Sequence record: SRR31156797_135
Length of the DNA: 41,421 nt
Direction: 5' to 3' (one strand)
Below are positions 4,377 to 33,714 of this stretch, piece after piece; the first letter of the stretch is position 1, and the number at the start of each line of letters is the position of its first letter. The notes under the pieces were generated by a model, which made no database searches, was not told where the DNA came from, and saw nothing but the letters and a program-made list of their open reading frames with translations. Made by a program: the position numbers and the translations under genes.

Positions 4377-5099
4377 TTACTTATTGATTCTCAACTCACT
4401 ATCTCTTAGCAACGGAACGATATCAGTATAATCCTTTTGCATAGCCCAGGCCATATCATCCTTTAATATTTCATACTTGCCCTTTAGTCGTGGAGAAGCT
4501 TCCAAAATATAGGAAATCCAATCATCACCAGCTGCATGCAGCATAGCGTTAGTAATAGATATAGAATCAGAGGTACTATAAAACTCATCCATTTGCAATA
4601 AATCATTTGCAAAAGCTCCTGCTAGCAAAGAATCTTCAATATTTACCTTCATTGTCCAACCAGAACAAAGTAATATCACATCTTTGTCAGACTTCAGAAT
4701 ATGATCTAATACAGCTGAGTAATTTAATATAGCAGCAACAATTGTTTCCTCTCCATTGGTTGCAGCAAAAGCTTGCGTACCATTAGTAGTAGTCATGGCT
4801 ATTTTCTGGTCTTTTACATTTTCAGGCTGAAATTCAAGTGGTGAATTTCCAAAATCAAAATCCTCAATTGGATCGCCATTTCGCTCTCCTGCAATTAAAT
4901 ATCCATGTTCACGATATGATTCGGCCAATTCAACATTTGAAACAGGAGTAATAGAAGCAGCGCCATTATTGAGAGCCGTCACAATTACTGTTGTAGCTCT
5001 AAACAAATCAATTACTACAACCAAATTATCCTCCTGCTTATAAGAATTATATAGCGCCGGGGAGAAACATATATCTACATGTCGCTTATTTACTTCCAT
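4377..5099 (-). CDS. comB: 2-phosphosulfolactate phosphatase (ComB family)
   Basis: VVIDLFRATT, GERNG, DFGNSP, TTTNGT, EDSLLAG motifs. Confidence 0.9.
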   Translation of the reverse strand: MEVNKRHVDICFSPALYNSYKQEDNLVVVIDLFRATTVIVTALNNGAASITPVSNVELAESYREHGYLIAGERNGDPIEDFDFGNSPLEFQPENVKDQKIAMTTTNGTQAFAATNGEETIVAAILNYSAVLDHILKSDKDVILLCSGWTMKVNIEDSLLAGAFANDLLQMDEFYSTSDSISITNAMLHAAGDDWISYILEASPRLKGKYEILKDDMAWAMQKDYTDIVPLLRDSELRINK

Positions 5100-5107
5100 C
5101 TTCTTAT

Positions 5108-5887
5108 TTATATTTTTATTTCAAAATCATCGGCATCATCAAACACCGGGAATTTCTTTCTAAAATCGTTCAGTTCATCCAGATCAATCTGAAAAGTTAG
5201 CATTTCATCTTTCTCATTTGTAAAATTACTTATAATCTCTCCACGTGGATTAATCATTAAAGAATTTCCATCATAAAATAAATTCCGGCCATCATTTCCT
5301 ACCCTGTTTACACCAGCCACATAACACTGATTCTCAATAGCTCTTGCCATTAACAACTTTTCCCATACCTGGGAGCGCGCAGCAGGCCAATTGGCCACAT
5401 AAATAGCTAAATCGTAATTATCTCTATTTCTACTCCAAACTGGAAATCTAAGATCGTAACACACAAATGGAGCTATTCTCCATCCTTTATAGTTTATTAT
5501 CTTTTGTGTTTTGCCAGCCTGAAAAACTTCATGTTCTCCTCCCATTTGAAACAAATGGCGTTTATCATAATATTCCACATTACCCAGTTCATCAACCCAT
5601 ACGAATCTATTCAGGAATTCATTGTCAATCTTTACCATAATGCTTCCACATATTGCGCACTGTTTTTGGATAGCCATATCTTTCATCCAACCTATAGTTT
5701 CACCTGGCCATTCTTCAGCAATATGTTGAGGCTCCATAGAAAATCCGGTGGTAAACATTTCCGGTAGAATTATAATATCTGTATCATTTGGAAGCAATTC
5801 GAATCGACTTTCAAATGCTTTCATATTAGCTTTTGGGTCTTCCCAGATCAAATCTGATTGAAATAATGCAAGATGTAATTTATTCAT
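5108..5887 (-). CDS. nitrilase-family amidohydrolase (YafV-like omega-amidase)
   Basis: Glu-Lys-Cys triad motifs LPEMFTTGF, YDKRHLF, VCYDLRFP; ARAIENQ. Confidence 0.9.
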   Translation of the reverse strand: MNKLHLALFQSDLIWEDPKANMKAFESRFELLPNDTDIIILPEMFTTGFSMEPQHIAEEWPGETIGWMKDMAIQKQCAICGSIMVKIDNEFLNRFVWVDELGNVEYYDKRHLFQMGGEHEVFQAGKTQKIINYKGWRIAPFVCYDLRFPVWSRNRDNYDLAIYVANWPAARSQVWEKLLMARAIENQCYVAGVNRVGNDGRNLFYDGNSLMINPRGEIISNFTNEKDEMLTFQIDLDELNDFRKKFPVFDDADDFEIKI

Positions 5888-5896
5888 TGTTCCGTT

Positions 5897-6448
5897 TTAA
5901 AATGGATATTCAAATTGCTCCGGCTTTTTAGCTTTAGGATCTACTGATTTAATTGATAAGACTAACTTTCTGAAATCACCTTCTTGATCATTAGAAGGAT
6001 GTATTAATTCCAATAGTGTAATCTCTTTCTTCTCAAAATCAATAGCAGCAGGGAGAATTGGAATTTTCGCTTTTTTAGCAATATAGTAAAAACCCTTCTT
6101 CCAACTTTTTACCTTTTTTCTGGTGCCTTCAGGTGTTACAACTAAAACAAACTTTTTAGACTTATTAATTCTATTTACAACATCAGTAATCATTTGTTTA
6201 GGAACTTTCCGATTTACCGGTATTGCTTTTAGAGCTCTTAGCAGAATTCCATAAGGAAAAAAGAATAGTTCTTTTTTGATTAAAAAATGCACATTTACTC
6301 GCATTGAAGTAGCAACCAGCCTACCAATTACAAAATCTTTGCTTGAAGTATGTGGAACCACAGCAATGATATATTTTGTTTGTTCAGGCTGCTTTCCAAG
6401 TATCTTCCAACCCATTAGTTTTAATAGAATACGAGCTAAATAATGCAT
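5897..6448 (-). CDS. 1-acyl-sn-glycerol-3-phosphate acyltransferase family protein
   Basis: HxxxxD motif PHTSSKD and PEGTR. Confidence 0.85.
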   Translation of the reverse strand: MHYLARILLKLMGWKILGKQPEQTKYIIAVVPHTSSKDFVIGRLVATSMRVNVHFLIKKELFFFPYGILLRALKAIPVNRKVPKQMITDVVNRINKSKKFVLVVTPEGTRKKVKSWKKGFYYIAKKAKIPILPAAIDFEKKEITLLELIHPSNDQEGDFRKLVLSIKSVDPKAKKPEQFEYPF

Positions 6449-11656: not shown

Positions 11657-12229
11657 TTATTCCGCAAAATTATAATTCATTTCAGTATGTTTAAACCCTC
11701 TTGGTAAAAAGAAAACAAACTCCGGGAAAGATTCATTTTCATTTATTTCATTTACCCGATAGGCTACTTTCTTATACTTATCAATCAAATAAAGGAGTAA
11801 ATTACCATAGTAAATTGCATGAATACTGTCTTTGCCATCATTATAATATGTAGCCTCGTAATTCAAATAAGTTGTATCAGATATTCGAAACAATTGAGAA
11901 GTGTCAAAAGCTAAGATTCTTTCTTTAATCGGAACTTTCAAAACTTCTTTTTTGGGGTGGATGATATAAAATAAAAATCCGTCTTTTCTCAAAATAGATT
12001 TAAACACATCCGTGTCTTCTTTTGATTCTTTTAAATCAGCTGTATACCGTTCACCATAGTTGTCAAAATGTATATCACAATATATACTTTTCCCTGATTT
12101 TAGATACTGCGCAGTCATTACACCCGAACTAAAAGGGGCTGATTTAAAATAATCTTCCTGACCCAACAAATTGGCAGCAGGCAAAATACACATTCCAAGA
12201 ACGAGCAAAATCAATTTTCTTCTCATCAT
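11657..12229 (-). CDS. secreted hypothetical protein (possibly LolA/DUF4412-like fold)
   Basis: Signal peptide; beta-rich; C-terminal F.LP.G motif; starts 6 bp after the upstream fusion gene. Confidence 0.65.
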   Translation of the reverse strand: MMRRKLILLVLGMCILPAANLLGQEDYFKSAPFSSGVMTAQYLKSGKSIYCDIHFDNYGERYTADLKESKEDTDVFKSILRKDGFLFYIIHPKKEVLKVPIKERILAFDTSQLFRISDTTYLNYEATYYNDGKDSIHAIYYGNLLLYLIDKYKKVAYRVNEINENESFPEFVFFLPRGFKHTEMNYNFAE

Positions 12230-12235
12230 TCTAAT

Positions 12236-14095
12236 CTACTTTCTAAACGCACAAGCGTCTTTTCTATAAATCATTGGACCCTGGAAAATATCTTTTGTTT
12301 GAGGAACTTTCAAATAGAATAAAGAACGTACCACACGATCAGCCAATACATTTAAATCCGTCCATATAGTTTCCTGTCGCATGCCTTTCATAGCCATAAT
12401 ACGAGCTTTATTTCCCATATAAGCAGTATTCTCAGCATACACAGCAGGTGTATACCAAATAGTTCGCACTCCTTTTGAAATAGCCTCTCCCGACATACTT
12501 CCGGCTAATCCATGCCAGCCTGATACAGCAGCGGCCAATGGTGATGATTCACTTAAATTAGCTTCCTCCAAAGGATGTCCTAATATCACAGTTGCTTCTT
12601 TGGTAAAGGCCAGAAGCTCTCGTGTAAGCCTGTCCATTGGTTTTTGCAATCTATAAATTGCCGACTCTAAATTTTCGTATGCATAAATGGTCTCTGATGC
12701 TAAATTCAGATTTATAACATAATCAAACTCTTTTGCATTAAGGCTCTGAACAAACGATAATACATCCTCCTCGCTTTCTATGTGGTACTCTAATACCGAA
12801 GCTTTACAATTTGGAAGATCTGATATTGTATTTAGCTGAGCTGAGTAATCATTAATTTGATTCACCTGAATTAAAAATTCAGCATCGCTGTGCATCATTT
12901 GCTCAAGAAGTGCAACACCAAAGTTATTGTCAGCACCTAGCATTAGTACTTTCTTACCTTTTAACAAACGATACTTTTTATTATAATCAGAAGGTGCTAC
13001 CCGTTGCTCCTTTGGAACCTGGTAAGTCCAGGCACCATACTCTCCACCAACCCCAGCAGTAGGACAAAGCAATCTCATACCCGGCTTTAATCTCCCCTCA
13101 TAATGTAACTCTGATAATGAAATAGGAATGGTTGTCCCAGATACATTCCCGTATTTTGCCTGAGTTTCCTGATACATTTTTTCACGGGGCAACCCTATTT
13201 CATCAGCTACAGTATGTAATATAGCATTCCCGGTTTGATGTGGCACAACCAAATCAATATCCTCCAATTTCCAGCCTTGCATTTTTAGAACCTCTTTGGA
13301 AGAGTTTATTAAATTGGGAACAGCTCTGCGCTTTACAGCAGCTCCATCCATATATAAATTCCAATCTTTGTCAACACCCACAAAATCAATCATACGTAAA
13401 TCATGATAATTTTTTGTGTAACCCACACCTTCAAATCCATTGGTTTGCTCAACCTTAGAAATAATAGCAGCCGCAGCAGCATCACCAAAGGTTGAATGAT
13501 ATACAAAATCACGTTTGTGATTTAGAAAGTGTGACATGGTTTCGGTGTTCGCAATCAAAATATTTTTTGCTTTTTCATCAGACTTGAAATAATCCAATGA
13601 GCGACGTAAAGCAATATTAAATCCGGCACATCCTGACGTAAGGGTCATTGCAGAAGTGTTATTTTCCGGATGCGTAAAATATGTTTTTAAAGTTGCTGCG
13701 ATACCCGGTGCTTGCTCCTGTGGAGACACAGTACTGACTATCCAACCATCAATATCTTCAGCATCTAAACCGCTATCTTCTAACGCCTTATCAACAGCTT
13801 CAACTAACAAATCAAGGCTATTTTCAGCTACATCCTGATTTTGCTTAATAGGTGGCCAGGGTGTTACATGATAACGGGTTTCAAACCCCATTTTATAACC
13901 CACAAAATATTCAAATGGTGTAGCGTCCGGATGATCCTTTAAGTATGCCTGATAGTTTTTACTATGCTTAATCAATTCTGGATTAAAACCATCTAGTTTA
14001 TCGCGGTTGGCTCCATCTTCAAGTAAACGGTTACTTACTTCGTATTTTCCGGCAGCATGTCCAAACCCGCTCAGTATATAGTTGTATTCTGTCAT
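12236..14095 (-). CDS. FabH/KAS III-like condensing domain fused to a degenerate SDR (pseudo-ketoreductase)
   Basis: SGCAGF, PHQTG, GNVSG triad; C-terminal Rossmann-like LGADNNFG lacking S-Y-K. Confidence 0.88.
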   Translation of the reverse strand: MTEYNYILSGFGHAAGKYEVSNRLLEDGANRDKLDGFNPELIKHSKNYQAYLKDHPDATPFEYFVGYKMGFETRYHVTPWPPIKQNQDVAENSLDLLVEAVDKALEDSGLDAEDIDGWIVSTVSPQEQAPGIAATLKTYFTHPENNTSAMTLTSGCAGFNIALRRSLDYFKSDEKAKNILIANTETMSHFLNHKRDFVYHSTFGDAAAAAIISKVEQTNGFEGVGYTKNYHDLRMIDFVGVDKDWNLYMDGAAVKRRAVPNLINSSKEVLKMQGWKLEDIDLVVPHQTGNAILHTVADEIGLPREKMYQETQAKYGNVSGTTIPISLSELHYEGRLKPGMRLLCPTAGVGGEYGAWTYQVPKEQRVAPSDYNKKYRLLKGKKVLMLGADNNFGVALLEQMMHSDAEFLIQVNQINDYSAQLNTISDLPNCKASVLEYHIESEEDVLSFVQSLNAKEFDYVINLNLASETIYAYENLESAIYRLQKPMDRLTRELLAFTKEATVILGHPLEEANLSESSPLAAAVSGWHGLAGSMSGEAISKGVRTIWYTPAVYAENTAYMGNKARIMAMKGMRQETIWTDLNVLADRVVRSLFYLKVPQTKDIFQGPMIYRKDACAFRK

Positions 14096-14102
14096 AATTC
14101 AA

Positions 14103-15962
14103 TTATTTATTCCATTTATAACCATCGCGACGCACAATTAAATCGCCTTCCCATGAATGGTGTACATTAGTTACTTTGGGTCGATAAAGCGACCTAACAA
14201 TTCGATCTGCCACCTCACTTGCAGGTAGTAGTCGCTGCTGATTGATACTCATCATAGCTGCCAATTGTTGCTTTGGATTAAGCTTTTCGACCATTCCGGC
14301 ACTGAGTAGACCAAGCATATAATAAATAGTCTTAACTTTCTGCTTATGAAATGGTCTGGCTACGCCAGCCACATAACTATGTAATGCTCTCTTTGAAGCC
14401 ACATAGGTTGATGAACCGCTAAATAGTGCATCTTCAGCAACTGAACCGACTACTAAAACAGTGTCTTTCACTTTCGCAGCCAATTGGTCTGTGATATTAC
14501 TAATTGCCAACGTGTTAATTTGCATGCCTTTGGCTAACTCCTTGGCAGAAACATCAGTAGCTCTACTTAAACTTCCTGTAATAGCTGAGGTATGAACTAA
14601 ATAATTAATTTCATTGTAATCAGCATTAACCTGTTTTATAAATGCTTCAACTTCACCTTTCTGACTGAAATTACAGCGAATAATCCGATATTTTACACCG
14701 GTTTTCTTCACATATTTCTCAAGCTCGGTAGCTTTATTTACATTGGAATTATATTGCAAAATAAGCTCACATCCTTCATCAGCCAATAATTTTACAACCT
14801 CCTGTCCTAATCCACCTGTTGCTCCTGTCACCAATGCCAATTTACCACTTAAGGATTTTTTTCTTTGCGGTTTTTTAATCTTCTTAGGAACGATATAAGT
14901 AAATCCGCCAAACTCTCCTCCAAGTCCACAGACAGCGGTAACGATTTTCATTCCGGGATTCAATCTATTTTCATCTTCCAATAAGCCTAGTGAAAATGGC
15001 ACGCTAGCTCCACTTAAATTACCATATTCAAGCTGCACTTCCTGATATAATTTTTCAGGTGGCACTTTCAAATAATGAGCAGAACCCTGAACAATAGCAT
15101 GCCCTGTTTGGTGCGGAACCAACATATCCATTGTATCTACTGTCCATTGATTATCATTCAATAGTTTTTGAGTTGTTTCGATGATATTTTTCGTAGCACG
15201 TTCTTTAACTCTTGTTGGTCCCATATAGAGATCACCTTGCTTATTGGCACCTAAAAAGTCAATCATATGAAGATCTTCGCCATTTCTTACAAAAGTAATC
15301 CCTTCCTTTTTATCGGATTTTGATCTTGAAAGCACAACAGCAGCAGCTGCATCAGCAAATGTAACATATGGTACGAAAGATGGCTCGTGCATTAATAAAC
15401 CAGACATCACTTCAGTATGCACAATCACAATGTGTTTGGCTTCCGGATTAGTCTTGAAATAATCAATGGCACGTTCAATATTAATATTAAAACCAACGCA
15501 AGCTGAATTAACTGTAGCTGAAGGTTTTGCATTATCCCATGCTGCAAAATGGGCTTTTATCGTAGCTCCAATACCAGGGGCTTGTTCAAATGGTGTAGCA
15601 GTACCTGCAAGCCAATAATCAATCTCTTCAGGATGTATTCCACTTTTCTCTAAAGCATTTTCAATGGCTCTAACACCTAATTCAAGGGTTGTTTCAGCAT
15701 GACGAAAAGCATCCTCAACCGGTGGAAAAGGAACCACATGATAGCGACTATGAAATCCCATTTTTTGCCAGGCAAAATATTCAAGTGGAGAAATATCCCC
15801 ATTCTTTTCCACATACTCCTTATAATCTGGAAGTTGGGTGATACGTTCAGGATCAAAATCACCAATCCAGCCATCCTTAATAGCTTGTTCTATCTGTTGA
15901 TTAGTTACCTTGTATTTTCCATGGGCATATCCAATTCCGGAAAAAATATAATTTTCGTGCAT
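14103..15962 (-). CDS. FabH/KAS III-like condensing domain fused to a FabG-like SDR ketoreductase
   Basis: SACVGF, PHQTG, GNLSG triad; TGATGGLG, VGS and YVASK SDR motifs. Confidence 0.9.
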   Translation of the reverse strand: MHENYIFSGIGYAHGKYKVTNQQIEQAIKDGWIGDFDPERITQLPDYKEYVEKNGDISPLEYFAWQKMGFHSRYHVVPFPPVEDAFRHAETTLELGVRAIENALEKSGIHPEEIDYWLAGTATPFEQAPGIGATIKAHFAAWDNAKPSATVNSACVGFNINIERAIDYFKTNPEAKHIVIVHTEVMSGLLMHEPSFVPYVTFADAAAAVVLSRSKSDKKEGITFVRNGEDLHMIDFLGANKQGDLYMGPTRVKERATKNIIETTQKLLNDNQWTVDTMDMLVPHQTGHAIVQGSAHYLKVPPEKLYQEVQLEYGNLSGASVPFSLGLLEDENRLNPGMKIVTAVCGLGGEFGGFTYIVPKKIKKPQRKKSLSGKLALVTGATGGLGQEVVKLLADEGCELILQYNSNVNKATELEKYVKKTGVKYRIIRCNFSQKGEVEAFIKQVNADYNEINYLVHTSAITGSLSRATDVSAKELAKGMQINTLAISNITDQLAAKVKDTVLVVGSVAEDALFSGSSTYVASKRALHSYVAGVARPFHKQKVKTIYYMLGLLSAGMVEKLNPKQQLAAMMSINQQRLLPASEVADRIVRSLYRPKVTNVHHSWEGDLIVRRDGYKWNK

Positions 15963-16032
15963 CTATATCTTTATTAGTAGTTTAGTTAAATCCTTTTTTA
16001 TTTTTTATTTACTATTTATTCTATTTATTGTC

Positions 16033-16179
16033 TTCCGTATTTTCTCTTCTGAATTCTGTATTCTATATTCTCTCTTCTGTATTCTGCATTCTATATTCTA
16101 TCTTCTGTCTTCTATCTTCTGTCTTCTGTATTCTGTATTCTGTCTTCTGTATTCTAAATTCTATATTCTGTCTTCCGTC
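16033..16179. repeat. degenerate 7-bp tandem array, 21 units, consensus TTCT(G/A)T(A/C)
   Basis: Unbroken 7-nt register TTCCGTA TTTTCTC TTCTGAA TTCTGTA ... TTCCGTC ending 1 nt from the hydratase stop codon. Confidence 0.95.
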
Positions 16180-16180
16180 T

Positions 16181-16930
16181 TCACTTCTTCTTATTCATAA
16201 ACTTTTCAATATGGCTTTTAGCTTTGGTTGTTAGCAATTTAGCAAACCCCTTAGATTCAATATCATAACCCACCTCTGTACCTGCATTCCTAATGGCATT
16301 TTTAAGAATTGTAATGGCTTCTCCATCTTTATTTGCCACCAATTTCTCAACTTTTGATAGTACATCAGGTATAAAGTTCTGTTCGTCTAAAATCAACTGA
16401 ACAATCCCATAATCCTTACATTTTAAAGCCGAAATTGTCTCTCCTGAAAGTATATAATAGAAGGCATCAGCTCTACCCAGTTTTCTGGTTAATCGTTGTG
16501 TTGCTCCACCACCCGGAATCATATCATAATTTAACTCTGGTAAGCTGAAAAAACTCTCTCTTGAAGCGAAGATCATATCTGCTGCAAGGGCCAACTCAAA
16601 TCCTCCACCTATTGCATAACCATGAACAGCAGCAATTACCGGCACAGGAAAATTTCCAACTTTTTGCAATAATTTGTGCAGCGATACTGATGTTTCAATA
16701 GCTTTCTGCTCTGTAACGTTATACATCTCTTTTAAATCTGCACCTGCAGCAAAGCAATCTCCTCTTCCGGCAATTACAATAAATTGATAATCAAAGTGCT
16801 TTTGACTGAAAAAATCATGTAACTCTTCTATTACAAGCTCTGAAATAGCATTTTTAATTTGTGGTCGATTTAGCCACAGGACAGCCCCGTTTTTTATGGG
16901 TTCTATTTGAATGGTTTTATAATTGGGCAT
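16181..16930 (-). CDS. enoyl-CoA hydratase/isomerase (crotonase) family protein
   Basis: LNRP..KNA, FAAGADL, GGGFELAL and LPE: both catalytic glutamates present. Confidence 0.92.
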   Translation of the reverse strand: MPNYKTIQIEPIKNGAVLWLNRPQIKNAISELVIEELHDFFSQKHFDYQFIVIAGRGDCFAAGADLKEMYNVTEQKAIETSVSLHKLLQKVGNFPVPVIAAVHGYAIGGGFELALAADMIFASRESFFSLPELNYDMIPGGGATQRLTRKLGRADAFYYILSGETISALKCKDYGIVQLILDEQNFIPDVLSKVEKLVANKDGEAITILKNAIRNAGTEVGYDIESKGFAKLLTTKAKSHIEKFMNKKK

Positions 16931-16991: not shown

Positions 16992-17789
16992 TTATTTTTT
17001 AAGTTTCTCTCCACATTTTTTACAATATATAGCATCTCCTTCGTGATTAACCTCATCACAAGAATGGCACTTCATTTTTATTGTTTGATTGGCTTTCACC
17101 AATTCAGCACTTACAATTCCTGTAGGAACAGCAATTATTGCGTAACCCAGGATCATGATTAAACTTGCAATGAATTGTCCTAAACTTGTCCCCGGACTAA
17201 TATCACCATAACCTACTGTGGTTAAAGTAACTATAGCCCAATATATTGATCTTGGAATAGATGTGTAACCATGTTCCGGTCCTTCGATTAAATACATTAA
17301 AGATCCTATGACGATCACGATGATCAATACAGCATAGATAAAAACGCCTATTCTTCTCCTACTTTGCTTTAAAGCCACAGCAATAGCCGAACCAGCATCA
17401 AGGTATTGTGATAATTTCAAAATACGGAAAACTCTTAGCAATCTTAAGGCACGGATTACTGCTAAATAATGTGTGCCAGCAATCATTAATGAAATATAAG
17501 TTGGTATAGCTGCCAGAAAATCTATTATTCCATAAAAACTAAAAATATATTTCCTTGGTTTCGGATGAACTAAAATGCGCAAAATATATTCAAGTGAGAA
17601 CACAATAGTAATAATCCATTCTACTGTATGCAGCAATACGATATAATCTTTACGAATCTCTGATACACTATCCAACATCACAACCAATACCCCAACTAGT
17701 ATCGCAATTAATAAAACTACATCAAATAGTTTACCTGTCTTAGTATCTGTAAAGAAAATAATATTGTATATGCGCTTTTTTAATGACAT
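16992..17789 (-). CDS. voltage-gated-type potassium channel (ion transporter) with C-terminal zinc ribbon
   Basis: S4 RALRLLRVFRILKL; filter TTVGYGD; CHSC...CKKC. Confidence 0.93.
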   Translation of the reverse strand: MSLKKRIYNIIFFTDTKTGKLFDVVLLIAILVGVLVVMLDSVSEIRKDYIVLLHTVEWIITIVFSLEYILRILVHPKPRKYIFSFYGIIDFLAAIPTYISLMIAGTHYLAVIRALRLLRVFRILKLSQYLDAGSAIAVALKQSRRRIGVFIYAVLIIVIVIGSLMYLIEGPEHGYTSIPRSIYWAIVTLTTVGYGDISPGTSLGQFIASLIMILGYAIIAVPTGIVSAELVKANQTIKMKCHSCDEVNHEGDAIYCKKCGEKLKK

Positions 17790-17874
17790 TCACTTTAATT
17801 TTTCACTATGCCTAAATAACAAAAGTAATAAATAGTTTTTAGTTAAAAGGAAAGATATCAAAAGCAAAAAAAGC

Positions 17875-20283
17875 TTATTCGTATTTCAAAAAATATGCAG
17901 GTTCTATTCTAAGGGCTTTAATGGTGTGGTAACTTACAGTTATTACTACGATACCTAAAATAAGTATAGACCCAAATAAATATGGAATTACACCAGGAGA
18001 AACTGAAGCTACAAAAGTTGCAAGCCATTGATTAGCAAAGACAAATGATCCCAGCCAGGCTAACAAAGTTGCCAAAGCAAAAATTTGCATATAATCAAGG
18101 TATAGCATCTGAATAATGTGTTTGCGACCTGCTCCAAGTATTTTTCTAATGCTTATATCCTTGCTTCTTTTTTGAGCAGAAAATGCACTTAAGGCAAAAA
18201 GTCCAAGGCTACTTATAATTATTGACAAACCAGAAAAATATGCAAAAATTGACAACAACCGGTGCTCTCTTGCATACTGACTATTAAAGGCTACTTTTAA
18301 TTGCTGTACTTTTGCTGCTTCATATGGAAAGAAACTATTCCAAATTCTTTCCAAGCCCTCTGAACGCATCAAACTACCTGGATTTGGTGAGTTAATGACA
18401 AGATATTGGCTCGGGAAAATTTGAGGTAAAATAACCAAAGGAGTCACTTCTTGATGCAAGCTGTAGTAATTGAAATCCTTTATTACTCCAACAACACGAT
18501 GATCAGATATAAAACCTGAACCAAATTCTTTTCCCAATGGTCGCTCCCATCCCATTTCTTTCACAAAAGCTTCATTAACCAATACTTCTCTTGCCAGGTT
18601 TTCTTCTATGGCATCTGGATCGAACCAACGTCCTGAAACAATATCGCAACCCAGAGTTTCCAGATAATCAGGTTTTCCACTGTAAAAGTCTATAGCATTC
18701 TGGTAAATTCCAGTATCGGCAGGTATATAAAACAAAAGCCTTCCAGTTCTCATACCTGGAACTCTGTTAGCCAAAGTTGCTTTTTGGACATCTTCCAGTT
18801 CCAGCACTGCTGATAAAAGTCTTTCATATTGTACTTCTCTTGAGCTATCTCGTTCAAGTTCCATTATGACCAAATTATCGAGGTCAAAACCAAGATCCTT
18901 ATCAGTCAAATATCTGGTTTGCAATTGTATAATAATGGTAGAAATAATGATGGTACCAGCTACTAAATATTGAGCTACTAACATCGCTTTTCTGACTTTG
19001 GTTGATGATACAAAATAACTTCTTACATTACGATATAACATCAAATCAGCACCACTCCTAAAAATTGTAATGGGTTGAAAGAGAGACAAAACAAATGCTG
19101 GATAAAACCCACTGATGAATCCCAAAAGAATCCAAATTATAAGAAGGAACCCAAACATTCTGCTTAGGATCACCCATTCAAAAATATGAAAATCAAAACC
19201 TGTTATTTCGTTAAAAGCCGGGAAGAGCATTTCAGAGAATATAATAGAAATGAGAATGGCCAGAAATGTAATAGCAATAGACTCTCCTAAAAATTGTATG
19301 ATTACATTCTTTCGCGATGCTCCCATAGTTTTGCGAATGGCAATTTCTCTGGCTCGTATACCCCCCTGCGCAATAGCCATATTTATGTAATTGATACTTG
19401 CAATGGTTAATATCAGAAACCCTATTACACTAAATAACCAAACTATCTGTTTATCGCTATTCGTCAAACTATCATATTGATACGTGTTGCTAAAATGGAT
19501 ATCCTTTACAGGTATGAATGGAAATTTAATATCCATATTCATTTTGTAGTAATTTGTAAAAGTATCCACCTCTGTTCTAAATGCACTATCCACCTTTGCC
19601 TCAAGCATATCCATAGGCAAATTACTTTGCACATACACTGAACTATTAAGTCTTGTCCAATCATACGTGTGGGTTCTTTCATTGATCATAGCTGTGTCAA
19701 ATGGAATAACTACATCAACATCTAAATGCGAATGATATCCACTCTTTGAAAAAACACCGGTAATTTGATAAAGCTTTTCTCCGTATTTGAACAAATCATA
19801 TTTATAAGGTTCAAAATAGGTTTCATAAAGCTTCTCAGATATCCATGCATTTGGTAAAGTATCTGTTTCTTGAAGTATGAAATCTCTTGGGTATGTAAAA
19901 AACTTAAAAAAGTTATCGTCAGTATGCACTATAGTGCCGGGATTAATCCATTTATCATCAATAAAAATATTCTTTCCATATACTCCTCTTTCAACCCTAC
20001 ACACCTGTATATCAGGAAATTCCTCAACAAGCCTCTGTCCCAACCTATTCGAAGCAAGTGCATACGGAGTGGCTTCACGATTATGATAATCAAAAACTTC
20101 ATTCACCCTGTACATCTGATCTGCATTCTCCCAATACTTATCGAAATTCAATTCTGTATACACATACAAGTAGATCAATGTACCTGCTGATATACCGGCG
20201 GCAAGACCAATAATATTGACAAAAGTGTTTAACTTTTGACGTAAGATATTACGATATATAACTGACAGATAATTTTTCCACAT
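17875..20283 (-). CDS. MacB/FtsX-family ABC transporter permease (duplicated architecture)
   Basis: NIIGLAAG, ASINYIN...EIAIRKTMGA, GVIKDFNY, SIRKILGA. Confidence 0.92.
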   Translation of the reverse strand: MWKNYLSVIYRNILRQKLNTFVNIIGLAAGISAGTLIYLYVYTELNFDKYWENADQMYRVNEVFDYHNREATPYALASNRLGQRLVEEFPDIQVCRVERGVYGKNIFIDDKWINPGTIVHTDDNFFKFFTYPRDFILQETDTLPNAWISEKLYETYFEPYKYDLFKYGEKLYQITGVFSKSGYHSHLDVDVVIPFDTAMINERTHTYDWTRLNSSVYVQSNLPMDMLEAKVDSAFRTEVDTFTNYYKMNMDIKFPFIPVKDIHFSNTYQYDSLTNSDKQIVWLFSVIGFLILTIASINYINMAIAQGGIRAREIAIRKTMGASRKNVIIQFLGESIAITFLAILISIIFSEMLFPAFNEITGFDFHIFEWVILSRMFGFLLIIWILLGFISGFYPAFVLSLFQPITIFRSGADLMLYRNVRSYFVSSTKVRKAMLVAQYLVAGTIIISTIIIQLQTRYLTDKDLGFDLDNLVIMELERDSSREVQYERLLSAVLELEDVQKATLANRVPGMRTGRLLFYIPADTGIYQNAIDFYSGKPDYLETLGCDIVSGRWFDPDAIEENLAREVLVNEAFVKEMGWERPLGKEFGSGFISDHRVVGVIKDFNYYSLHQEVTPLVILPQIFPSQYLVINSPNPGSLMRSEGLERIWNSFFPYEAAKVQQLKVAFNSQYAREHRLLSIFAYFSGLSIIISSLGLFALSAFSAQKRSKDISIRKILGAGRKHIIQMLYLDYMQIFALATLLAWLGSFVFANQWLATFVASVSPGVIPYLFGSILILGIVVITVSYHTIKALRIEPAYFLKYE

Positions 20284-20285
20284 GA

Positions 20286-22697
20286 CTACTCATATTTAAG
20301 TGTCTTTGCAGGATTAACACCTGCTGCCTGTTGTGTGTGAAGCAATGATACAATAATAATCATAAACGCCACAAGAATTGATGAAATTATGAAATTTACA
20401 AATGAGAAACCAATATGACTGGCAAAATTGCTTAACCACAATTCACTTAAATACCACGCCAACGGAATGGCAAATACCAATACAATCAGATATATTCGTA
20501 TAAATTCACCGGCAATCAGCATTAAAATTGAATTATTTGAAGCGCCATGAACTTTTCTAATGCTAATCTCTTTGCTTTTTTGTAAAATTAAAAACGAAAT
20601 AAGCCCAAGCATACCAACAGCAGAAATAACAATACTTAATATGGACATTAAACCAGCCAGTTTATTAAATAGTTTTTCCTCTTTATATTGTTGATAATAA
20701 ATATCTTCATAAGGTGTAATTTGAATATTATTAGGCCCAAGATAGTTTTTAATGGCTAACTTAATAACTTCAAGAGCTTGCTCCTCCTGCTCCTGATCAT
20801 ACCTTACTGCCATGTAGGCTTTCCCATAGGAATATTGATCACTCTCGTAAATTAAATCAATTATAAAAGGTTCTGGTTCATTATGCAATGCTTGAGGGAA
20901 AAAGCCTTCAAAAACGCCCACCACTCGCTCTTTTCCGTTATAGGTATACAAACTATGTCCGATAGCAAACTCAGGTTTTTCATATCCAAGGTATTTCACC
21001 ATTTTCATGTTAATGAGGACCTCTTTCACATGGGCTAAACTATCTTTGGAAAAGTTATTGCCTGCCACCAGATTAAAACCATAAGTTTCCAGAAAATCAT
21101 CCATAACCTTCAATGAAGGTAAAAACGCAACGTCTTCATTGTTTTTTTTCATTTTCAAATGATATGGATGTCTGTTGTGATCAATTCCCGGTATATAGTC
21201 AGATGCAGATACGTTATAAATAAATGGTGCTCTTTCAAGTCGTGTTTTTAATGCCGAATAATGCTGATATAATTCACTAAACCTGGCATTAATAATAAAA
21301 AGATTATCCCGATTAATGCCATTTTCTGATTTCAGCATAAACTTATACTGACCATTAATAGTAAGGGCAGCAAATATCATCAAAGTACTGATTAAGAGCT
21401 GACTAACAACTAAGACCTTTCTACTAAATCCACTTTTCGATGCTCTTCTTAGGTTACCTTTTAAAATATTTGAAGGTTTTAATCCTGAAATAAAAAAAGC
21501 TGGATATAAACCACCCAATAAGGTTACAAAAAGGGTAAGAATTATTATCAGTATGAGGTTCTTGGTTTGAAATAAATCAGTAAAAACAAAATTCTTGAGT
21601 GTAATCCCGTTAAACCAGGGTAATAATAGCTCAGTAAACATTACAGAAATAATAACAGCTATTATTGTAATAATAAATGCTTCACTTATCAGTTGATATC
21701 TTAATCTCAGTACCGAAGCACCAATCACTTTTTTAATAGCAATGGCTCGGGCTCTGTAAGCAAAAGTTGCGGTGGTAAGATTCACATAATTAATTACAGC
21801 CATCATGATTAGAAACAGGGCAATACCTCCAAAAATATAGATATAAACCATATTGCCATTTTGTCTTATTTCGTATTCAAGATTTGATGTAAGGTGGATA
21901 TCCTGCAATGGCTGCAAATACAAGGTATTATTATCACGCACAGCCTCATTAAAATTTTCATAAACAAACTCAGGTAACCTTTTACTGACTTTGTTAGTAG
22001 CATCAGGTCCATTTAGTTTTACATACGTCCAATAAGGATTGGTAACCCAATCGTTTAAACCTCTTTTCCCTCGCATTTCCAATAGTGTTTCCATACTGAC
22101 CAGCACAGAAAAATGAAAATGTGAATTCACGGGCCAATCTTTTACAACTGATTCAATTTCAACCTGAAACCTATCTTCAATGGTAAGTTTTTTACCAAGT
22201 ACATCTGTATGGCCGAAATATCTTTTTGCTGCTTTTTCAGTAATAACAGCTTTGAAAGGTTTTTCAAGTAGGTTTTGATTGTTTCCATAAACCTGTTCAA
22301 CAGTAAAAACTTTGAAAAAGCCTGCATCAGCAAAGAAAAAACCACTATCATTATGTGTATAACTTCTGTATGAAATCTTATTAGAAGGCGACTGAAAATT
22401 GTATAATCGCGTATAAGCTAACACCTCGTCATCAAAATACTTGGCAAAAGAAGGACCCAAAGGTAATGGACAACTGGAAGAACGCTCAATAATACCGCCA
22501 TAATTACCATGCTGAACTACCCTATAAATATCATCAGCATCCTCATGAAAACTATCAAAATTCAACTCATCGTTAAGATAAAGCCCAATTAAAAATGCTG
22601 ACGTAAAGCCCAGTATCAGTCCAAATAAATTAACCGATAAAAACGTGCGATTGTGAAACGCATGTCTGAAGGCTATATGTAAACATTTAAAAAACAC
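20286..22697 (-). CDS. MacB/FtsX-family ABC transporter permease (GTG start)
   Basis: NLFGLILG, LQPLQDIHL, INYVNL, EISIRKVHGAS, NPAKTLKYE. Confidence 0.92.
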   Translation of the reverse strand: MFFKCLHIAFRHAFHNRTFLSVNLFGLILGFTSAFLIGLYLNDELNFDSFHEDADDIYRVVQHGNYGGIIERSSSCPLPLGPSFAKYFDDEVLAYTRLYNFQSPSNKISYRSYTHNDSGFFFADAGFFKVFTVEQVYGNNQNLLEKPFKAVITEKAAKRYFGHTDVLGKKLTIEDRFQVEIESVVKDWPVNSHFHFSVLVSMETLLEMRGKRGLNDWVTNPYWTYVKLNGPDATNKVSKRLPEFVYENFNEAVRDNNTLYLQPLQDIHLTSNLEYEIRQNGNMVYIYIFGGIALFLIMMAVINYVNLTTATFAYRARAIAIKKVIGASVLRLRYQLISEAFIITIIAVIISVMFTELLLPWFNGITLKNFVFTDLFQTKNLILIIILTLFVTLLGGLYPAFFISGLKPSNILKGNLRRASKSGFSRKVLVVSQLLISTLMIFAALTINGQYKFMLKSENGINRDNLFIINARFSELYQHYSALKTRLERAPFIYNVSASDYIPGIDHNRHPYHLKMKKNNEDVAFLPSLKVMDDFLETYGFNLVAGNNFSKDSLAHVKEVLINMKMVKYLGYEKPEFAIGHSLYTYNGKERVVGVFEGFFPQALHNEPEPFIIDLIYESDQYSYGKAYMAVRYDQEQEEQALEVIKLAIKNYLGPNNIQITPYEDIYYQQYKEEKLFNKLAGLMSILSIVISAVGMLGLISFLILQKSKEISIRKVHGASNNSILMLIAGEFIRIYLIVLVFAIPLAWYLSELWLSNFASHIGFSFVNFIISSILVAFMIIIVSLLHTQQAAGVNPAKTLKYE

Positions 22698-22700
22698 CCT

Positions 22701-22749
22701 TAATGGTTAATGATTAATTATCAATTATTAATGTTTAATGATTAATTAT
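22701..22749. repeat. 7-bp tandem array, 7 units, consensus TAAT(G/T)AT
   Basis: TAATGGT TAATGAT TAATTAT CAATTAT TAATGTT TAATGAT TAATTAT. Confidence 0.75.
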
Positions 22750-22792
22750 AATGTGATTAGGATTAACTGGCTTCAAATGATATTTCAGCTAG

Positions 22793-23488
22793 TTATAGTT
22801 GCTTATCAAATCCTTCACTTACGTTTTCATGGATCACTTTCCCATCGAACAAGCGAATTATTCGACGGGCATAATCAGCATCACGTTGAGAGTGCGTTAC
22901 CATAATAATCGTTGATCCTGCACTGTTTAACTGATTCAATAGCTGCATTACTTCATCACCATGCGCCGAATCCAAATTTCCGGTTGGTTCATCAGCTAAA
23001 ATAAGCGGTGGATTGGCTACTACTGCTCTTGCTACAGCAACTCTTTGCTGCTGACCACCTGATAATTGCATAGGAAAGTAGCGGTGCCTGTGCGTAATTT
23101 GAACCTTATCCAACGCTTCTAATACTTTGCGCTTTCGCTCACGGGATGAAACACCCATGTAGATTAAAGGAAGCTCAACATTCTCAAACACATTAAGCTC
23201 TTCAATGAGGTTAAAATTCTGGAAAATAAAGCCAATACTTCCCTTGCGCATCTTGGCCCTATACTTTTCCTTTAATTTGCTTACCTCTTTATCAAGGAAG
23301 TAATATTCTCCTTGGGTAGGTGTATCAATGAGACCAAGTATATTCAAAAGTGTTGTTTTCCCACAACCGGAAGGTCCCATTACTGCTGTAAACTCCCCTT
23401 CCTGTATCTCCAAAGTAACATTGTTCAGCGCGATAGTTTCAATCTCGTCAGTACGAAAAATTTTACTTAAGTTATTGATTTTTAACAT
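22793..23488 (-). CDS. ABC transporter ATP-binding protein (LolD/MacB type)
   Basis: Walker A GPSGCGKT, LSGGQQQR, ILADEPTGNLD. Confidence 0.96.
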   Translation of the reverse strand: MLKINNLSKIFRTDEIETIALNNVTLEIQEGEFTAVMGPSGCGKTTLLNILGLIDTPTQGEYYFLDKEVSKLKEKYRAKMRKGSIGFIFQNFNLIEELNVFENVELPLIYMGVSSRERKRKVLEALDKVQITHRHRYFPMQLSGGQQQRVAVARAVVANPPLILADEPTGNLDSAHGDEVMQLLNQLNSAGSTIIMVTHSQRDADYARRIIRLFDGKVIHENVSEGFDKQL

Positions 23489-23489
23489 A

Positions 23490-33566: not shown

Positions 33567-33689
33567 ATAGCATTGAAATAAAAGAAAGAAATTATAATAC
33601 AAACAGATAAAAAATGACGATTTAACTTGAAATTAATTAAAAAAGATCGAGAAGTGAATCTGGAAAACAGAATTGATAATCGCTAATAA

Positions 33690-33714
33690 TTCTGTATTCT
33701 GTATTCTGACTTCT
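33690..33714. repeat. short TTCTGTA heptamer array
   Basis: TTCTGTA TTCTGTA TTCTGAC TTCT, same unit as the 16.0-kb array. Confidence 0.65.

What the first reader, a model, noticed from the sequence alone, without database searches (positions are those of the whole stretch)
11657..16930. Candidate new lipid/polyketide system: crotonase + two tandem KAS III-ketoreductase fusion proteins + secreted protein
Seen: four co-oriented genes; gaps of 7 bp between the fusions and 6 bp to the secreted protein. Each fusion joins a FabH-type condensing domain (Cys-His-Asn intact) to an SDR domain, and the crotonase retains both catalytic glutamates. Established: FabH, FabG and enoyl-CoA hydratase catalyse condensation, ketoreduction and (de)hydration; FabH and FabG are normally separate proteins. 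Inference: three of the four steps of an acyl-elongation cycle are present, with no ACP, enoyl reductase or acyl-CoA ligase in the cluster. This suggests a compact CoA-based synthase making a 3-hydroxy, enoyl or head-to-head condensed lipid. It does not match the OleABCD, DarAB, PqsBCD or aryl-polyene layouts as I know them.
Basis: partly seen in the sequence, partly recalled or inferred. Interest (0 to 1): 0.85.

Follow-up and report, generated by a model that had tools for sequence, protein, structure and literature searches.

The report
Paired ketosynthase-reductase fusions with a crotonase
A conserved, uncharacterised three-gene set in anaerobic Bacteroidales joins a crotonase to two paralogous FabH-type ketosynthase-reductase fusion proteins, one with a dead reductase, and it probably builds an unknown hydroxy or unsaturated acyl compound.

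Summary
The genes exist as described, with one correction. Only the first fusion (14103-15962) has an intact SDR reductase. The second (12236-14095) keeps the Cys-His-Asn ketosynthase triad but has lost the glycine motif and the Ser-Tyr-Lys residues, although its C-terminal domain still models as an SDR fold.

In 92 loci the recurrent core is crotonase, then fusion A (reductase active), then an optional ALDH-like gene, then fusion B. The secreted protein occurs in only 5 loci, all close Salinivirga-type relatives, so it is not part of the core.

All 112 full-length fusions keep Cys-His-Asn. Clade A keeps Asn-Ser-Tyr-Lys in 58 of 58, and clade B lost it in 38 of 54, apparently more than once. 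Of 17 genomes with a hit, 15 carry one A and one B. I therefore read them as a heteromer with a structural pseudo-reductase.

The family was found in 12 of 13 Salinivirgaceae genomes but is rare elsewhere. Relatives keep a housekeeping fabH and acpP. Only eight short proteins, apparently fragments, come close to an unfused form. No chain in the PDB library searched covers both domains, and five literature searches found no paper.

The ACP-docking arginine of FabH is absent and no ACP gene is linked, so a CoA-based route is my favoured but unproven reading. This scan found the same family earlier in a rumen genome.

Verdict: a new variant of a known kind, of moderate to high interest.

The parts
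16181..16930 (-). Crotonase / enoyl-CoA hydratase (249 aa, P0004), first gene of the module
   Evidence: ECH_1 scores 156.9 bits against a cut-off of 27. The best PDB matches by sequence are 3-hydroxypropionyl-CoA dehydratase and mitochondrial enoyl-CoA hydratase, at E 1e-33 to 1e-36. E112 and E132 are present; across 45 module-linked ECH proteins these columns are Glu in 41 and 43. An ECH lies immediately upstream of fusion A in 23 of 35 assessable lineages.
14877..15962 (-). Fusion A, KAS III (FabH-type) ketosynthase domain, residues 1-362, with a roughly 35-residue N-terminal insert that is absent from E. coli FabH
   Evidence: ACP_syn_III and ACP_syn_III_C hits. C155, H284 and N315 are present. 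Foldseek's best matches are FabH chains with TMt 0.84-0.93. The insert is visible in the alignment to E. coli FabH.
14103..14876 (-). Fusion A, active classical SDR ketoreductase domain, residues 363-619 plus the stop codon
   Evidence: adh_short 2.3e-26 and KR 1.2e-13. TGATGGLG and N483-S507-Y520-K524 are present, and this tetrad is kept in 58 of 58 clade A proteins. The full-length model has pLDDT 93.2 and pTM 0.92.
13001..14095 (-). Fusion B, KAS III ketosynthase domain, residues 1-365, catalytic triad intact
   Evidence: ACP_syn_III_C 1.1e-21 and ACP_syn_III 3.1e-11. C156, H286 and N317 are present. The triad is kept in 54 of 54 clade B proteins. Fusion B is 35% identical to fusion A over its full length.
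12236..13000 (-). Fusion B, pseudo-SDR domain, residues 366-619 plus the stop codon: SDR fold kept, catalytic and glycine motifs lost
   Evidence: No SDR hit at E <= 0.001, and adh_short E = 0.11 for the domain alone. It reads LGADNNFG, with L-H-L-V at the N-S-Y-K positions. The model has pLDDT 92.0 and pTM 0.90 with a Rossmann-type strand-helix pattern. Foldseek's best matches are SDR enzymes, E about 1e-10 and TMq 0.60-0.65. dN against the closest relative is 0.132 with synonymous sites saturated.
11657..12229 (-). Small protein with a signal peptide (190 aa, P0003): a lineage-specific neighbour, probably not part of the conserved module
   Evidence: No Pfam or NCBIfam hit. A profile built from its 5 homologues finds nothing else among 869 ORFs of 92 loci. 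The ESM Atlas points to DUF4412-like clusters at 0.92-0.94, which is a lead only. It is 56% identical in the closest relative, whereas the fusions are 89-91% identical.

Best explanation
Crotonase, fusion A and fusion B form a conserved operon-like module. It encodes an uncharacterised, self-contained acyl-chain-building enzyme set found in anaerobic Bacteroidales.

Fusion A (KAS III plus an active ketoreductase) and fusion B (KAS III plus a catalytically dead reductase-fold domain) most likely assemble as an A/B heteromer. Both ketosynthase sites work. Only A's reductase works, and B's dead domain serves as its structural partner.

Proposed chemistry, all inferred:
1. An acyl-CoA primer is loaded on the active-site cysteine.
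2. It is condensed decarboxylatively with a malonyl thioester. I favour malonyl-CoA over malonyl-ACP.
3. A's reductase reduces the 3-oxoacyl product to 3-hydroxyacyl.
4. The crotonase dehydrates it to a 2-enoyl-CoA.
5. The second ketosynthase site can extend this once more.

The output would be a 3-hydroxy, enoyl or dienoyl acyl-CoA that is about two C2 units longer than the primer. Where the ALDH-like gene sits between A and B, the thioester is probably interconverted with an aldehyde.

What is shown: the domain content, the catalytic residues, the co-conservation and the A/B pairing. What is inferred: the heteromer, the carrier, the order of steps and the product.
For: Module conservation:
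- Of 92 loci (the window, 11 genome loci and 80 metagenome loci), 85 hold a fusion ORF and 44 hold a linked ECH. Eleven hold the ALDH-like gene, and no other neighbour cluster exceeds 7 loci.
- Wherever the genes are linked, the order is ECH, A, optional ALDH, B.
- Among 40 clade A lineages at 90% identity, ECH is immediately upstream in 23, absent in 12 and not assessable in 5. A second fusion follows within 3 genes in 22, does not in 12, and is not assessable in 6. Both occur in 16 of 31.
- Gaps are short. Most ECH-to-A gaps lie between -4 and +42 bp (n = 35), and most A-to-B gaps between 3 and 9 bp (n = 29).

Catalytic residues:
- Cys-His-Asn is present in 112 of 112 full-length fusions. 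Asn-Ser-Tyr-Lys is intact in 74 and lost in 38.

A/B pairing:
- A midpoint-rooted tree gives clade A (58 proteins, all active, first position) and clade B (54 proteins, 38 dead, all the second-position copies). The dead forms sit in separate sub-clades.
- Of 17 genomes with any hit, 15 carry one A and one B, sometimes on different contigs.
- The pseudo-SDR domain keeps its fold and has clade-B-specific invariant residues. It is under constraint: dN is 0.132, against 0.227 for ECH and 0.378 for the small protein.

CoA rather than ACP:
- The crotonase is of the canonical CoA-hydratase type.
- The position of E. coli FabH R249 is Ala in 58 of 58 clade A proteins and Ala or Val in 54 of 54 clade B proteins.
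- FabG R129 falls in a deletion and R172 is not conserved. The roles of these residues are recalled from the literature, not from any call.
- No ACP-like sequence scored better than E 4.9 in the window or 91 loci.

Not housekeeping:
- Relatives G600 and G001 have a fabH above the curated cut-off, and G600, G001 and G002 all have acpP.
Against: No experiment, expression data or product is known.

The heteromer is not shown. A quarter to a third of assessable A lineages have no linked ECH or B. One genome has only A and one has only B, though both may simply be incomplete.

Absence of ACP-docking residues rests on a sequence alignment and on residue roles I recall. Other docking modes exist, and all three relatives tested have AcpP.

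No enoyl reductase, thioesterase or acyltransferase is linked, so the cycle and the off-loading step are incomplete.

FabG-type reductases usually give (R)-3-hydroxyacyl products, while canonical crotonases prefer (S) (recalled). The reductase-crotonase pairing is therefore not straightforward.

Several clade B proteins keep a glycine-rich loop, and 16 of 54 keep the full tetrad. A dead structural partner therefore does not describe the whole clade.
Confidence: 0.45

Rival explanations
1. An ACP-dependent side branch of type II fatty-acid synthesis. The fusions take a special acyl-CoA primer, condense it with malonyl-ACP and deliver a 3-hydroxyacyl-ACP to the ordinary FAS or to lipid acyltransferases. 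The crotonase prepares or edits the CoA primer.
For: The ketosynthase domains resemble genuine FabH most closely (NCBIfam best hits, PDB, Foldseek). All three relatives tested have AcpP. The module is almost universal in one family (12 of 13). In loci with solo copies it sits among housekeeping genes such as PriA, UvrC and MTHFR, which looks like primary lipid metabolism. E. coli F87 is replaced by Ala in 110 of 112. By recalled analogy with long-chain FabH enzymes, that suggests a longer primer.
Against: The FabH R249 equivalent is never basic, in 112 of 112. FabG R129 and R172 equivalents are missing. No ACP gene is linked in 92 loci. The dehydratase partner is a CoA-type crotonase, not a hotdog FabZ.
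Confidence: 0.25
2. A synthase for a cis-2-unsaturated (DSF-like) fatty-acid signal. An (R)-specific reductase gives (R)-3-hydroxyacyl thioester, and the crotonase dehydrates this to the cis-2-enoyl form, as RpfF does.
For: The crotonase keeps both glutamates, which RpfF also needs (recalled). The FabG-like reductase is intact. The stereochemical logic (recalled) fits a reductase-crotonase pair better than it fits ordinary elongation. In the window, two-component sensor genes lie beside the module.
Against: The crotonase's best matches are ordinary hydratases, and no RpfF family appears among its 25 best NCBIfam hits. No thioesterase, ligase or conserved sensor is linked outside the close relatives. 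Two ketosynthases are not needed for such a product.
Confidence: 0.1
3. One reading: a four-gene system that includes the secreted protein and makes a head-to-head (OleA-like) condensed or exported lipid.
For: The four genes are co-oriented with gaps of 6-7 bp in the window and in its closest relatives. A MacB-type exporter set lies upstream on the same strand.
Against: The small protein occurs in 5 of 92 loci. The exporter occurs only in close relatives. No OleB, OleC or OleD-type neighbours were found. The triad is that of a decarboxylating FabH, and the best family matches are FabH.
Confidence: 0.05
4. A catabolic, beta-oxidation-like set: hydratase, dehydrogenase and thiolase-fold enzyme run in the degradative direction.
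For: The three chemistries are the same as in beta-oxidation, and the crotonase is of the degradative CoA type.
Against: All 112 ketosynthase domains carry the Cys-His-Asn triad of decarboxylating condensing enzymes, not the Cys-His-Cys triad of thiolases (the distinction is recalled). The reductase is of the FabG type.
Confidence: 0.05
5. A BioZ-like route to the pimeloyl precursor of biotin.
For: In one locus (L033), a BioA equivalog (684 bits against a cut-off of 625) lies between the fusion and the ECH. BioZ structures appear among the Foldseek matches, at ranks 27-32.
Against: This is the only such locus among 92. BioB is above its cut-off in only 2 of 5 module-bearing genomes and is missing from the complete genome G600. 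Of the two genomes with BioB, G098 has BioC above its cut-off (208.2 bits) and G027 scores just below it (182.7 against 184.95).
Confidence: 0.02

Closest known systems
FabH, FabG and FabZ, the initiation steps of bacterial type II fatty-acid synthesis
   Same: The module has the same condensing fold and Cys-His-Asn triad, the same classical SDR ketoreductase tetrad, and the same sequence of condensation, ketoreduction and dehydration.
   Different: The ketosynthase and reductase are fused in one 619-aa chain. There are two paralogous chains, one with a dead reductase. The dehydratase is a crotonase, not a hotdog enzyme. The ACP-docking arginine positions are not conserved, and scores fall far below the FabH and FabG cut-offs (104 and 136 against 292; 81 against 298).
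NphT7-type KAS III enzymes that use malonyl-CoA, and the engineered CoA-based elongation cycles built on them (recalled, from no call)
   Same: These would work the same way: KAS III condensation on CoA thioesters followed by a reductase and a crotonase, without ACP.
   Different: No sequence test against NphT7 was run. Here the enzymes are natural fusions, they come as a pair, and no enoyl reductase is linked.
PqsBC / PqsD of Pseudomonas quinolone synthesis
   Same: They are FabH-fold enzymes that act on CoA substrates. PqsD is among the best structural matches (rank 10). PqsBC is a heterodimer of two FabH-like paralogues (recalled).
   Different: In PqsBC one ketosynthase subunit is inactive (recalled). 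Here both keep the triad, and it is the reductase of one chain that is dead. There are no anthranilate-related neighbours.
Ketoreductase of modular polyketide synthases, with its catalytic and structural Rossmann subdomains (recalled)
   Same: An active SDR is paired with a degenerate SDR-fold partner that is kept for structure.
   Different: There the two halves lie in one chain of a KAS I/II-type megasynthase that has ACP and AT domains. Here they lie on two separate KAS III fusions.
DpgA-D of dihydroxyphenylglycine synthesis (recalled)
   Same: A CoA-based condensing enzyme works with crotonase-fold dehydratases. DpgD and DpgA families appear among the weak NCBIfam hits.
   Different: DpgA is a type III PKS. 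The scores here are far below the cut-offs (113.5 against 400; 28.6 against 425), and there is no DpgC or aminotransferase context.

Membership tests
FabH (beta-ketoacyl-ACP synthase III, TIGR00747) | Score above the curated family cut-off (292.1 bits) | tested here: not met
   104.1 bits for fusion A and 136.5 bits for fusion B.
FabH (beta-ketoacyl-ACP synthase III, TIGR00747) | Cys-His-Asn catalytic triad | tested here: met
   C155/H284/N315 in A and C156/H286/N317 in B; present in 112 of 112 family members.
FabH (beta-ketoacyl-ACP synthase III, TIGR00747) | Basic ACP-docking residue at the position of E. coli R249 (role recalled) | tested here: not met
   Ala in 58 of 58 clade A and Ala or Val in 54 of 54 clade B, from an alignment with E. 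coli FabH.
FabH (beta-ketoacyl-ACP synthase III, TIGR00747) | Stand-alone protein of about 320 aa | tested here: not met
   The proteins are 619-aa fusions. The only short relatives at 41-81% identity are 8 apparent fragments, and the next short proteins are ordinary FabH at 30% identity or less.
FabG (3-oxoacyl-ACP reductase, TIGR01830) | Score above the curated cut-off (297.75 bits) | tested here: not met
   81 bits for fusion A and no hit for fusion B.
FabG (3-oxoacyl-ACP reductase, TIGR01830) | Asn-Ser-Tyr-Lys tetrad and TGxxxGxG motif | tested here: inconclusive
   Met in fusion A (58 of 58 in clade A). Not met in the window's fusion B, and lost in 38 of 54 clade B proteins.
Crotonase / enoyl-CoA hydratase (PF00378) | Pfam gathering score and the two catalytic glutamates | tested here: met
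   156.9 bits against 27; E112 and E132 are present. No NCBIfam equivalog cut-off is reached; the best is 153.9 against 355.
OleABCD olefin / beta-lactone pathway | OleA with linked OleB (hydrolase), OleC (AMP ligase) and OleD (extended SDR) | tested here: not met
   None of these was found in the window or among the conserved neighbours. The reductase is a classical, FabG-like SDR.
DarAB dialkylresorcinol pathway | DarB family score (cut-off 550 bits) | tested here: not met
   24.7 bits for fusion B, covering only residues 261-343.
BioZ-type pimeloyl synthesis | Presence of the rest of the biotin pathway in genomes that carry the module | tested here: not met
   BioB is above its cut-off in 2 of 5 module-bearing genomes.
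Type I FAS / modular PKS KS-KR | KAS I/II-type ketosynthase with AT and ACP domains in the same chain | tested here: not met
   The ketosynthase is of the KAS III type and there is no AT or PP-binding domain. The only protein over 1084 aa found is an unrelated Streptomyces PKS at E 2.9e-4.
RpfF-type DSF synthase | Crotonase with dehydratase plus thioesterase activity on 3-hydroxyacyl-ACP | not testable with these tools
   Both glutamates are present, but the activity cannot be read from the sequence. No RpfF family appears among the 25 best NCBIfam hits.

The most novel reading that the evidence does not exclude
The module is a natural, ACP-free mini-synthase. A heteromer of two KAS III-reductase fusions, one reductase active and one turned into a structural or regulatory partner, works with a crotonase entirely on CoA thioesters. 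It carries out two or more rounds of condensation, reduction and dehydration without enoyl reduction. The product would be a conjugated dienoyl or polyenoyl, or a cis-2-enoyl, compound specific to anaerobic Bacteroidales. This would be a fourth way of organising fatty-acid or polyketide chain building, alongside the type I, II and III systems.
Probability: 0.2. Interest if true: 0.8.

Novelty: new variant of a known kind. Interest (0 to 1): 0.6.

Why it matters
If the reading holds, it shows how chain-building chemistry can run without a carrier protein, using a compact pair of fusion enzymes. Metabolic engineers have had to assemble such a design by hand.

It would also give a clean natural case of an enzyme domain kept as a dead structural partner, with the loss of catalysis apparently repeated within one clade.

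Finally, it points to an unknown lipid or small acyl metabolite that is nearly universal in Salinivirgaceae and scattered through Bacteroidales from digesters, sediments and the rumen. A cultured member, Salinivirga cyanobacteriivorans, has a 79% identical homologue, so the question can be tested directly.

Tried and rejected
Own genome: none is held for this window, so I worked through relatives.

RNA evidence for co-transcription: no RNA holder was listed for 11657-16930.

Predicted complex: I submitted fusion A's SDR domain (363-619) with fusion B's pseudo-SDR domain (366-619). The tool's verdict was 'weak support', with a median score of 0.56 (runs 0.45, 0.76, 0.56) and a best control of 0.00. 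The runs agreed in at least 77% of contacts, and the partner's pLDDT was at least 72. At this mark 51 of 78 solved complexes and 2 of 108 mismatched pairs passed. At 0.60 or under, only 5 of those 78 solved complexes passed, as did all 4 passing mismatches. SDR dimers are common in the PDB, so the pass may be from memory. I do not count this as evidence.

Biotin / pimelate hypothesis: it was raised by a BioA next to a fusion in L033. I rejected it because BioB is above its cut-off in only 2 of 5 module genomes. Of those two, G098 has BioC above its cut-off and G027 scores just below it.

Exporter link: the roughly 800-aa neighbours of solo copies are not MacB permeases. They are TPR-SpoIIE, an outer-membrane barrel protein and PriA.

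ACP candidates: the small ORFs upstream of solo copies are the ATP-synthase epsilon subunit or have no Pfam hit.

Longer fused forms (A-B or ECH-A in one chain): none was found above 1084 aa. The tool itself calls this weak evidence.

First genome-contig scan: I used a single protein instead of an alignment and obtained only 2 loci. The metagenome scan with alignment A1 made up for this.

dN/dS: synonymous sites are saturated between the window and its closest relative, so only dN values are usable.

mafft --keeplength shifted the E. coli numbering. I discarded that residue table and redid it.

Literature: five full-text searches returned no paper on a FabH-SDR fusion. I saw search listings and abstract openings only and read no paper. 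Subscription journals and supplements are not covered.

Full report
**What is in the window**

Four minus-strand ORFs lie at 16181-16930 (249 aa), 14103-15962 (619 aa, "fusion A"), 12236-14095 (619 aa, "fusion B") and 11657-12229 (190 aa). The crotonase-A gap is 218 bp and is filled by 21 copies of a heptamer repeat.

Pfam calls the first ORF a crotonase (ECH_1, 7.8e-46). Fusion A is ACP_syn_III plus ACP_syn_III_C plus adh_short (2.3e-26). Fusion B is ACP_syn_III plus ACP_syn_III_C only. The small ORF matches nothing. NCBIfam places both ketosynthase parts nearest to FabH and A's C-terminus nearest to FabG-like reductases, all far below the curated cut-offs.

A and B are paralogues, 35% identical over their whole length. 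Both keep the Cys-His-Asn triad. A has TGATGGLG and N483-S507-Y520-K524. At the same positions B reads LGADNNFG and L-H-L-V. B's C-terminal 254 residues alone score adh_short E = 0.11. Even so, with an alignment of 31 clade B domains they model confidently (pLDDT 92.0, pTM 0.90) as a Rossmann-type domain. The best structural matches of that model are SDR enzymes (E about 1e-10, TMq 0.60-0.65).

The crotonase has both catalytic glutamates. It is most similar to ordinary CoA hydratases.

**Surroundings**

The 34 window ORFs of 100 aa or more that I scanned with Pfam include:
- a cation channel, two MacB/FtsX permeases, an ABC ATPase and a HlyD-like protein upstream on the same strand;
- a hybrid sensor kinase and a DtxR-like regulator converging from the other side;
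- further away, two-component genes and a SusC/SusD locus.

None is an ACP, an enoyl reductase or an acyl-CoA ligase. A tblastn search with AcpP of a relative and of E. coli found no match in the window and only chance-level matches (E 4.9 or above) in three of the 91 related loci.

**Relatives and distribution**

The 'near'-length search of the protein collection found 244 proteins (120 listed). All those with names come from Bacteroidales, Bacteroidia or Salinivirgaceae assemblies, and they carry only generic names. Salinivirga cyanobacteriivorans has a 79% identical copy.

Among shorter proteins, only 8 apparent fragments are close. The next are ordinary FabH at 30% identity or less. No longer fused form was found, which is weak evidence.

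No genome is held for the window. In genome samples centred on a relative, the counts were:
- 12 of 13 genomes of its family had a match;
- 7 of 201 genomes of its order had one;
- 1 of 401 genomes of its class had one, and that one was the relative itself.

Relatives G600 and G001 have a fabH above the curated cut-off, and all three relatives tested have acpP. The fusions therefore do not stand in for housekeeping genes there.

**Neighbourhood conservation**

I compared the window with 11 genome loci and 80 metagenome loci, giving 869 ORFs after overlap filtering. All-against-all clustering gave these groups:
- the fusions: 122 ORFs in 85 loci;
- a linked crotonase: 45 ORFs in 44 loci;
- an ALDH-like protein of about 411 aa: 11 loci;
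- nothing else in more than 7 loci.

Wherever the genes are linked, the order is crotonase, A, optional ALDH-like gene, B. The complete string is visible in 24 loci, and many other loci are cut by contig ends.

After merging clade A proteins at 90% identity into 40 lineages:
- the crotonase is immediately upstream in 23, absent in 12 and not assessable in 5;
- a second fusion follows within three genes in 22, does not in 12, and is not assessable in 6;
- both hold in 16 of 31.

Intergenic gaps are mostly a few bases.

The small secreted protein occurs in 5 loci, all close relatives, and a profile built from it finds nothing else. The channel and MacB genes are likewise confined to close relatives. 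Flanks of solo copies are housekeeping genes. The cyclophilins, M64 and tricorn-like peptidases and DUF4831 found near some copies are each confined to a few loci.

**Two clades and repeated loss of the reductase**

I analysed 112 of the 122 fusion ORFs, dropping 10 partial ones under 560 aa. All 112 keep Cys-His-Asn. Asn-Ser-Tyr-Lys is intact in 74 and lost in 38.

A FastTree phylogeny, midpoint-rooted, splits them into two clades:
- Clade A has 58 proteins. All have an active reductase and all sit in first position.
- Clade B has 54 proteins. It holds every second-position copy plus some solo copies behind DUF4831.

In clade B the tetrad is intact in 16 and lost in 38. The dead forms fall in separate sub-clades with different replacements (LHLV/IHIA, NTWN, NNWK, NAFK and others), which suggests more than one loss.

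Pfam still recognises adh_short in 38 of the 44 clade B proteins that I scanned, out of the 54. Clade B also has its own invariant residues in this domain.

Between the window and its closest relative, the pseudo-domain's dN is 0.132. That compares with 0.227 for the crotonase and 0.378 for the small protein. Synonymous sites are saturated. The domain is therefore constrained, not decaying.

**A and B travel together**

Seventeen genomes have any hit. Fifteen carry exactly one A and one B, in several cases on different contigs. One has only A and one has only B. Classification came from the tree and from best BLAST matches. Where A and B are unlinked in Salinivirgaceae, the crotonase stays with A in four of the five genomes (G594, G596, G598 and G143). 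No ECH was seen in the short locus around A in G595.

**Structure**

Fusion A models as one compact two-domain protein (pLDDT 93.2, pTM 0.92). The best PDB matches cover only the FabH part (TMq 0.48 or less). No chain covers both domains.

**Carrier and pocket**

I aligned the family with E. coli FabH and FabG, taken from the K-12 record. The roles of the E. coli residues are recalled from the literature and come from no call.
- FabH R249, the ACP-docking arginine, is Ala in 58 of 58 clade A proteins and Ala or Val in 54 of 54 clade B proteins.
- F87, which caps the acyl pocket, is Ala in 110 of 112.
- R151 is Phe or Tyr.
- FabG R129 lies in a deletion and R172 is not conserved.

Add the CoA-type crotonase and the absence of any linked ACP, and I read the substrates as CoA thioesters with a primer longer than acetyl. 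This is an inference from alignment, not a demonstration.

**Most likely mechanism**

A and B form a heteromer, and both condensing sites are active. A's reductase serves the complex, and B's dead domain is its structural partner. This parallels the catalytic and structural halves of polyketide ketoreductases (recalled).

The inferred steps are: acyl-CoA priming; decarboxylative condensation with malonyl-CoA; reduction to 3-hydroxyacyl-CoA; dehydration by the crotonase; and a second extension at the other site.

The ALDH-like protein keeps the catalytic cysteine, while its general-base glutamate varies. Where it is present, it would link the thioester to an aldehyde.

I give this reading 0.45 overall. 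The conserved three-gene module itself is close to certain. The heteromer is perhaps 0.6, and the CoA-based chemistry about 0.4.

**Rivals**

- An ACP-dependent branch of fatty-acid synthesis (0.25).
- A cis-2-enoyl, DSF-like signal synthase (0.1). This is attractive because an (R)-specific reductase plus a crotonase would give the cis isomer (recalled).
- A degradative set (0.05).
- A BioZ-like biotin route (0.02), tested and nearly excluded.

**Comparison with known systems**

The parts are FabH-like, FabG-like and crotonase-like. However, the proteins fail the curated FabH and FabG cut-offs, lack the docking residues, and are fused and paired. I do not file them as FabH or FabG. The module works like the first three steps of fatty-acid synthesis, or like the engineered NphT7-based CoA cycles (recalled). 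OleABCD, DarAB, BioZ and type I KS-KR membership tests all failed.

**Novelty**

Five full-text searches found no paper on such a fusion. I saw listings only, and subscription journals and supplements are not covered.

It reported the dead second reductase and dismissed the adjacent cyclophilin as a local accident. My data agree. They add the crotonase link, the ALDH-like variant, the A/B clade structure, the genome-level pairing and the missing docking residues.

I rate this a new variant of a known kind, with interest 0.6.

Noticed in passing
window 16029-16175 (also 33688-33708); L034 5780-5830: There are 21 tandem copies of a heptamer (GAATACA/GAAGACA on the gene strand, 77% matches) in the 218-bp spacer between the crotonase and fusion A. 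A two-copy echo lies in another intergenic region. The pattern matches 14 times, against 0.07 expected. The closest relative has related AGAATT(C/T) repeats arranged as an inverted repeat at the same place. The function is unknown; it may be a regulatory or mobile intergenic repeat.
   Followed up: partly
window 16992-24602, minus strand: A cation-channel gene, two roughly 800-aa MacB/FtsX permeases, an ABC ATPase and a HlyD-like protein lie directly upstream of the crotonase on the same strand. They are conserved only in the close Salinivirga-type relatives, so they are probably unrelated to the module.
   Followed up: partly
L027 5654-6904; L056 9883-11112, and 9 other loci: A divergent, N-terminally short ALDH-like protein (about 411 aa) is inserted between fusions A and B in 11 loci. 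The catalytic Cys motif GQAAVC is kept. The general-base Glu is present in some (YEG) and replaced in others (YFG).
   Followed up: partly
L033 7731-9014: A BioA equivalog (684 bits against a cut-off of 625) sits between a clade B fusion and a crotonase in one genome. It is the only biotin gene seen next to the module.
   Followed up: yes
G600:C1:4131738-4139985; G002:C144:15909-24153: Relatives carry a separate cluster with a 423-aa ketosynthase-like ORF, an SDR and two further FabH-like ORFs (334-363 aa). This may be another lipid or pigment pathway. It was not examined.
   Followed up: no
G598:C17:30857-32689; G599:C2:198098-199924: The clade A copies of two Salinivirgaceae genomes each show one in-frame TAA in the tblastn match. 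In G599 no clade B copy was found. These may be decaying copies or assembly errors.
   Followed up: no
L033, L089, L095, L109 (upstream of clade B solo copies): A DUF4831 protein (about 370-380 aa) lies immediately upstream of a sub-clade of clade B fusions, three of which keep an intact reductase tetrad.
   Followed up: partly
window 4377-6448: A ComB-like 2-phosphosulfolactate phosphatase, a CN-hydrolase and a PlsC-type acyltransferase lie in a row on the minus strand. This is a possible small sulfonate or lipid-related set. It was not examined.
   Followed up: no
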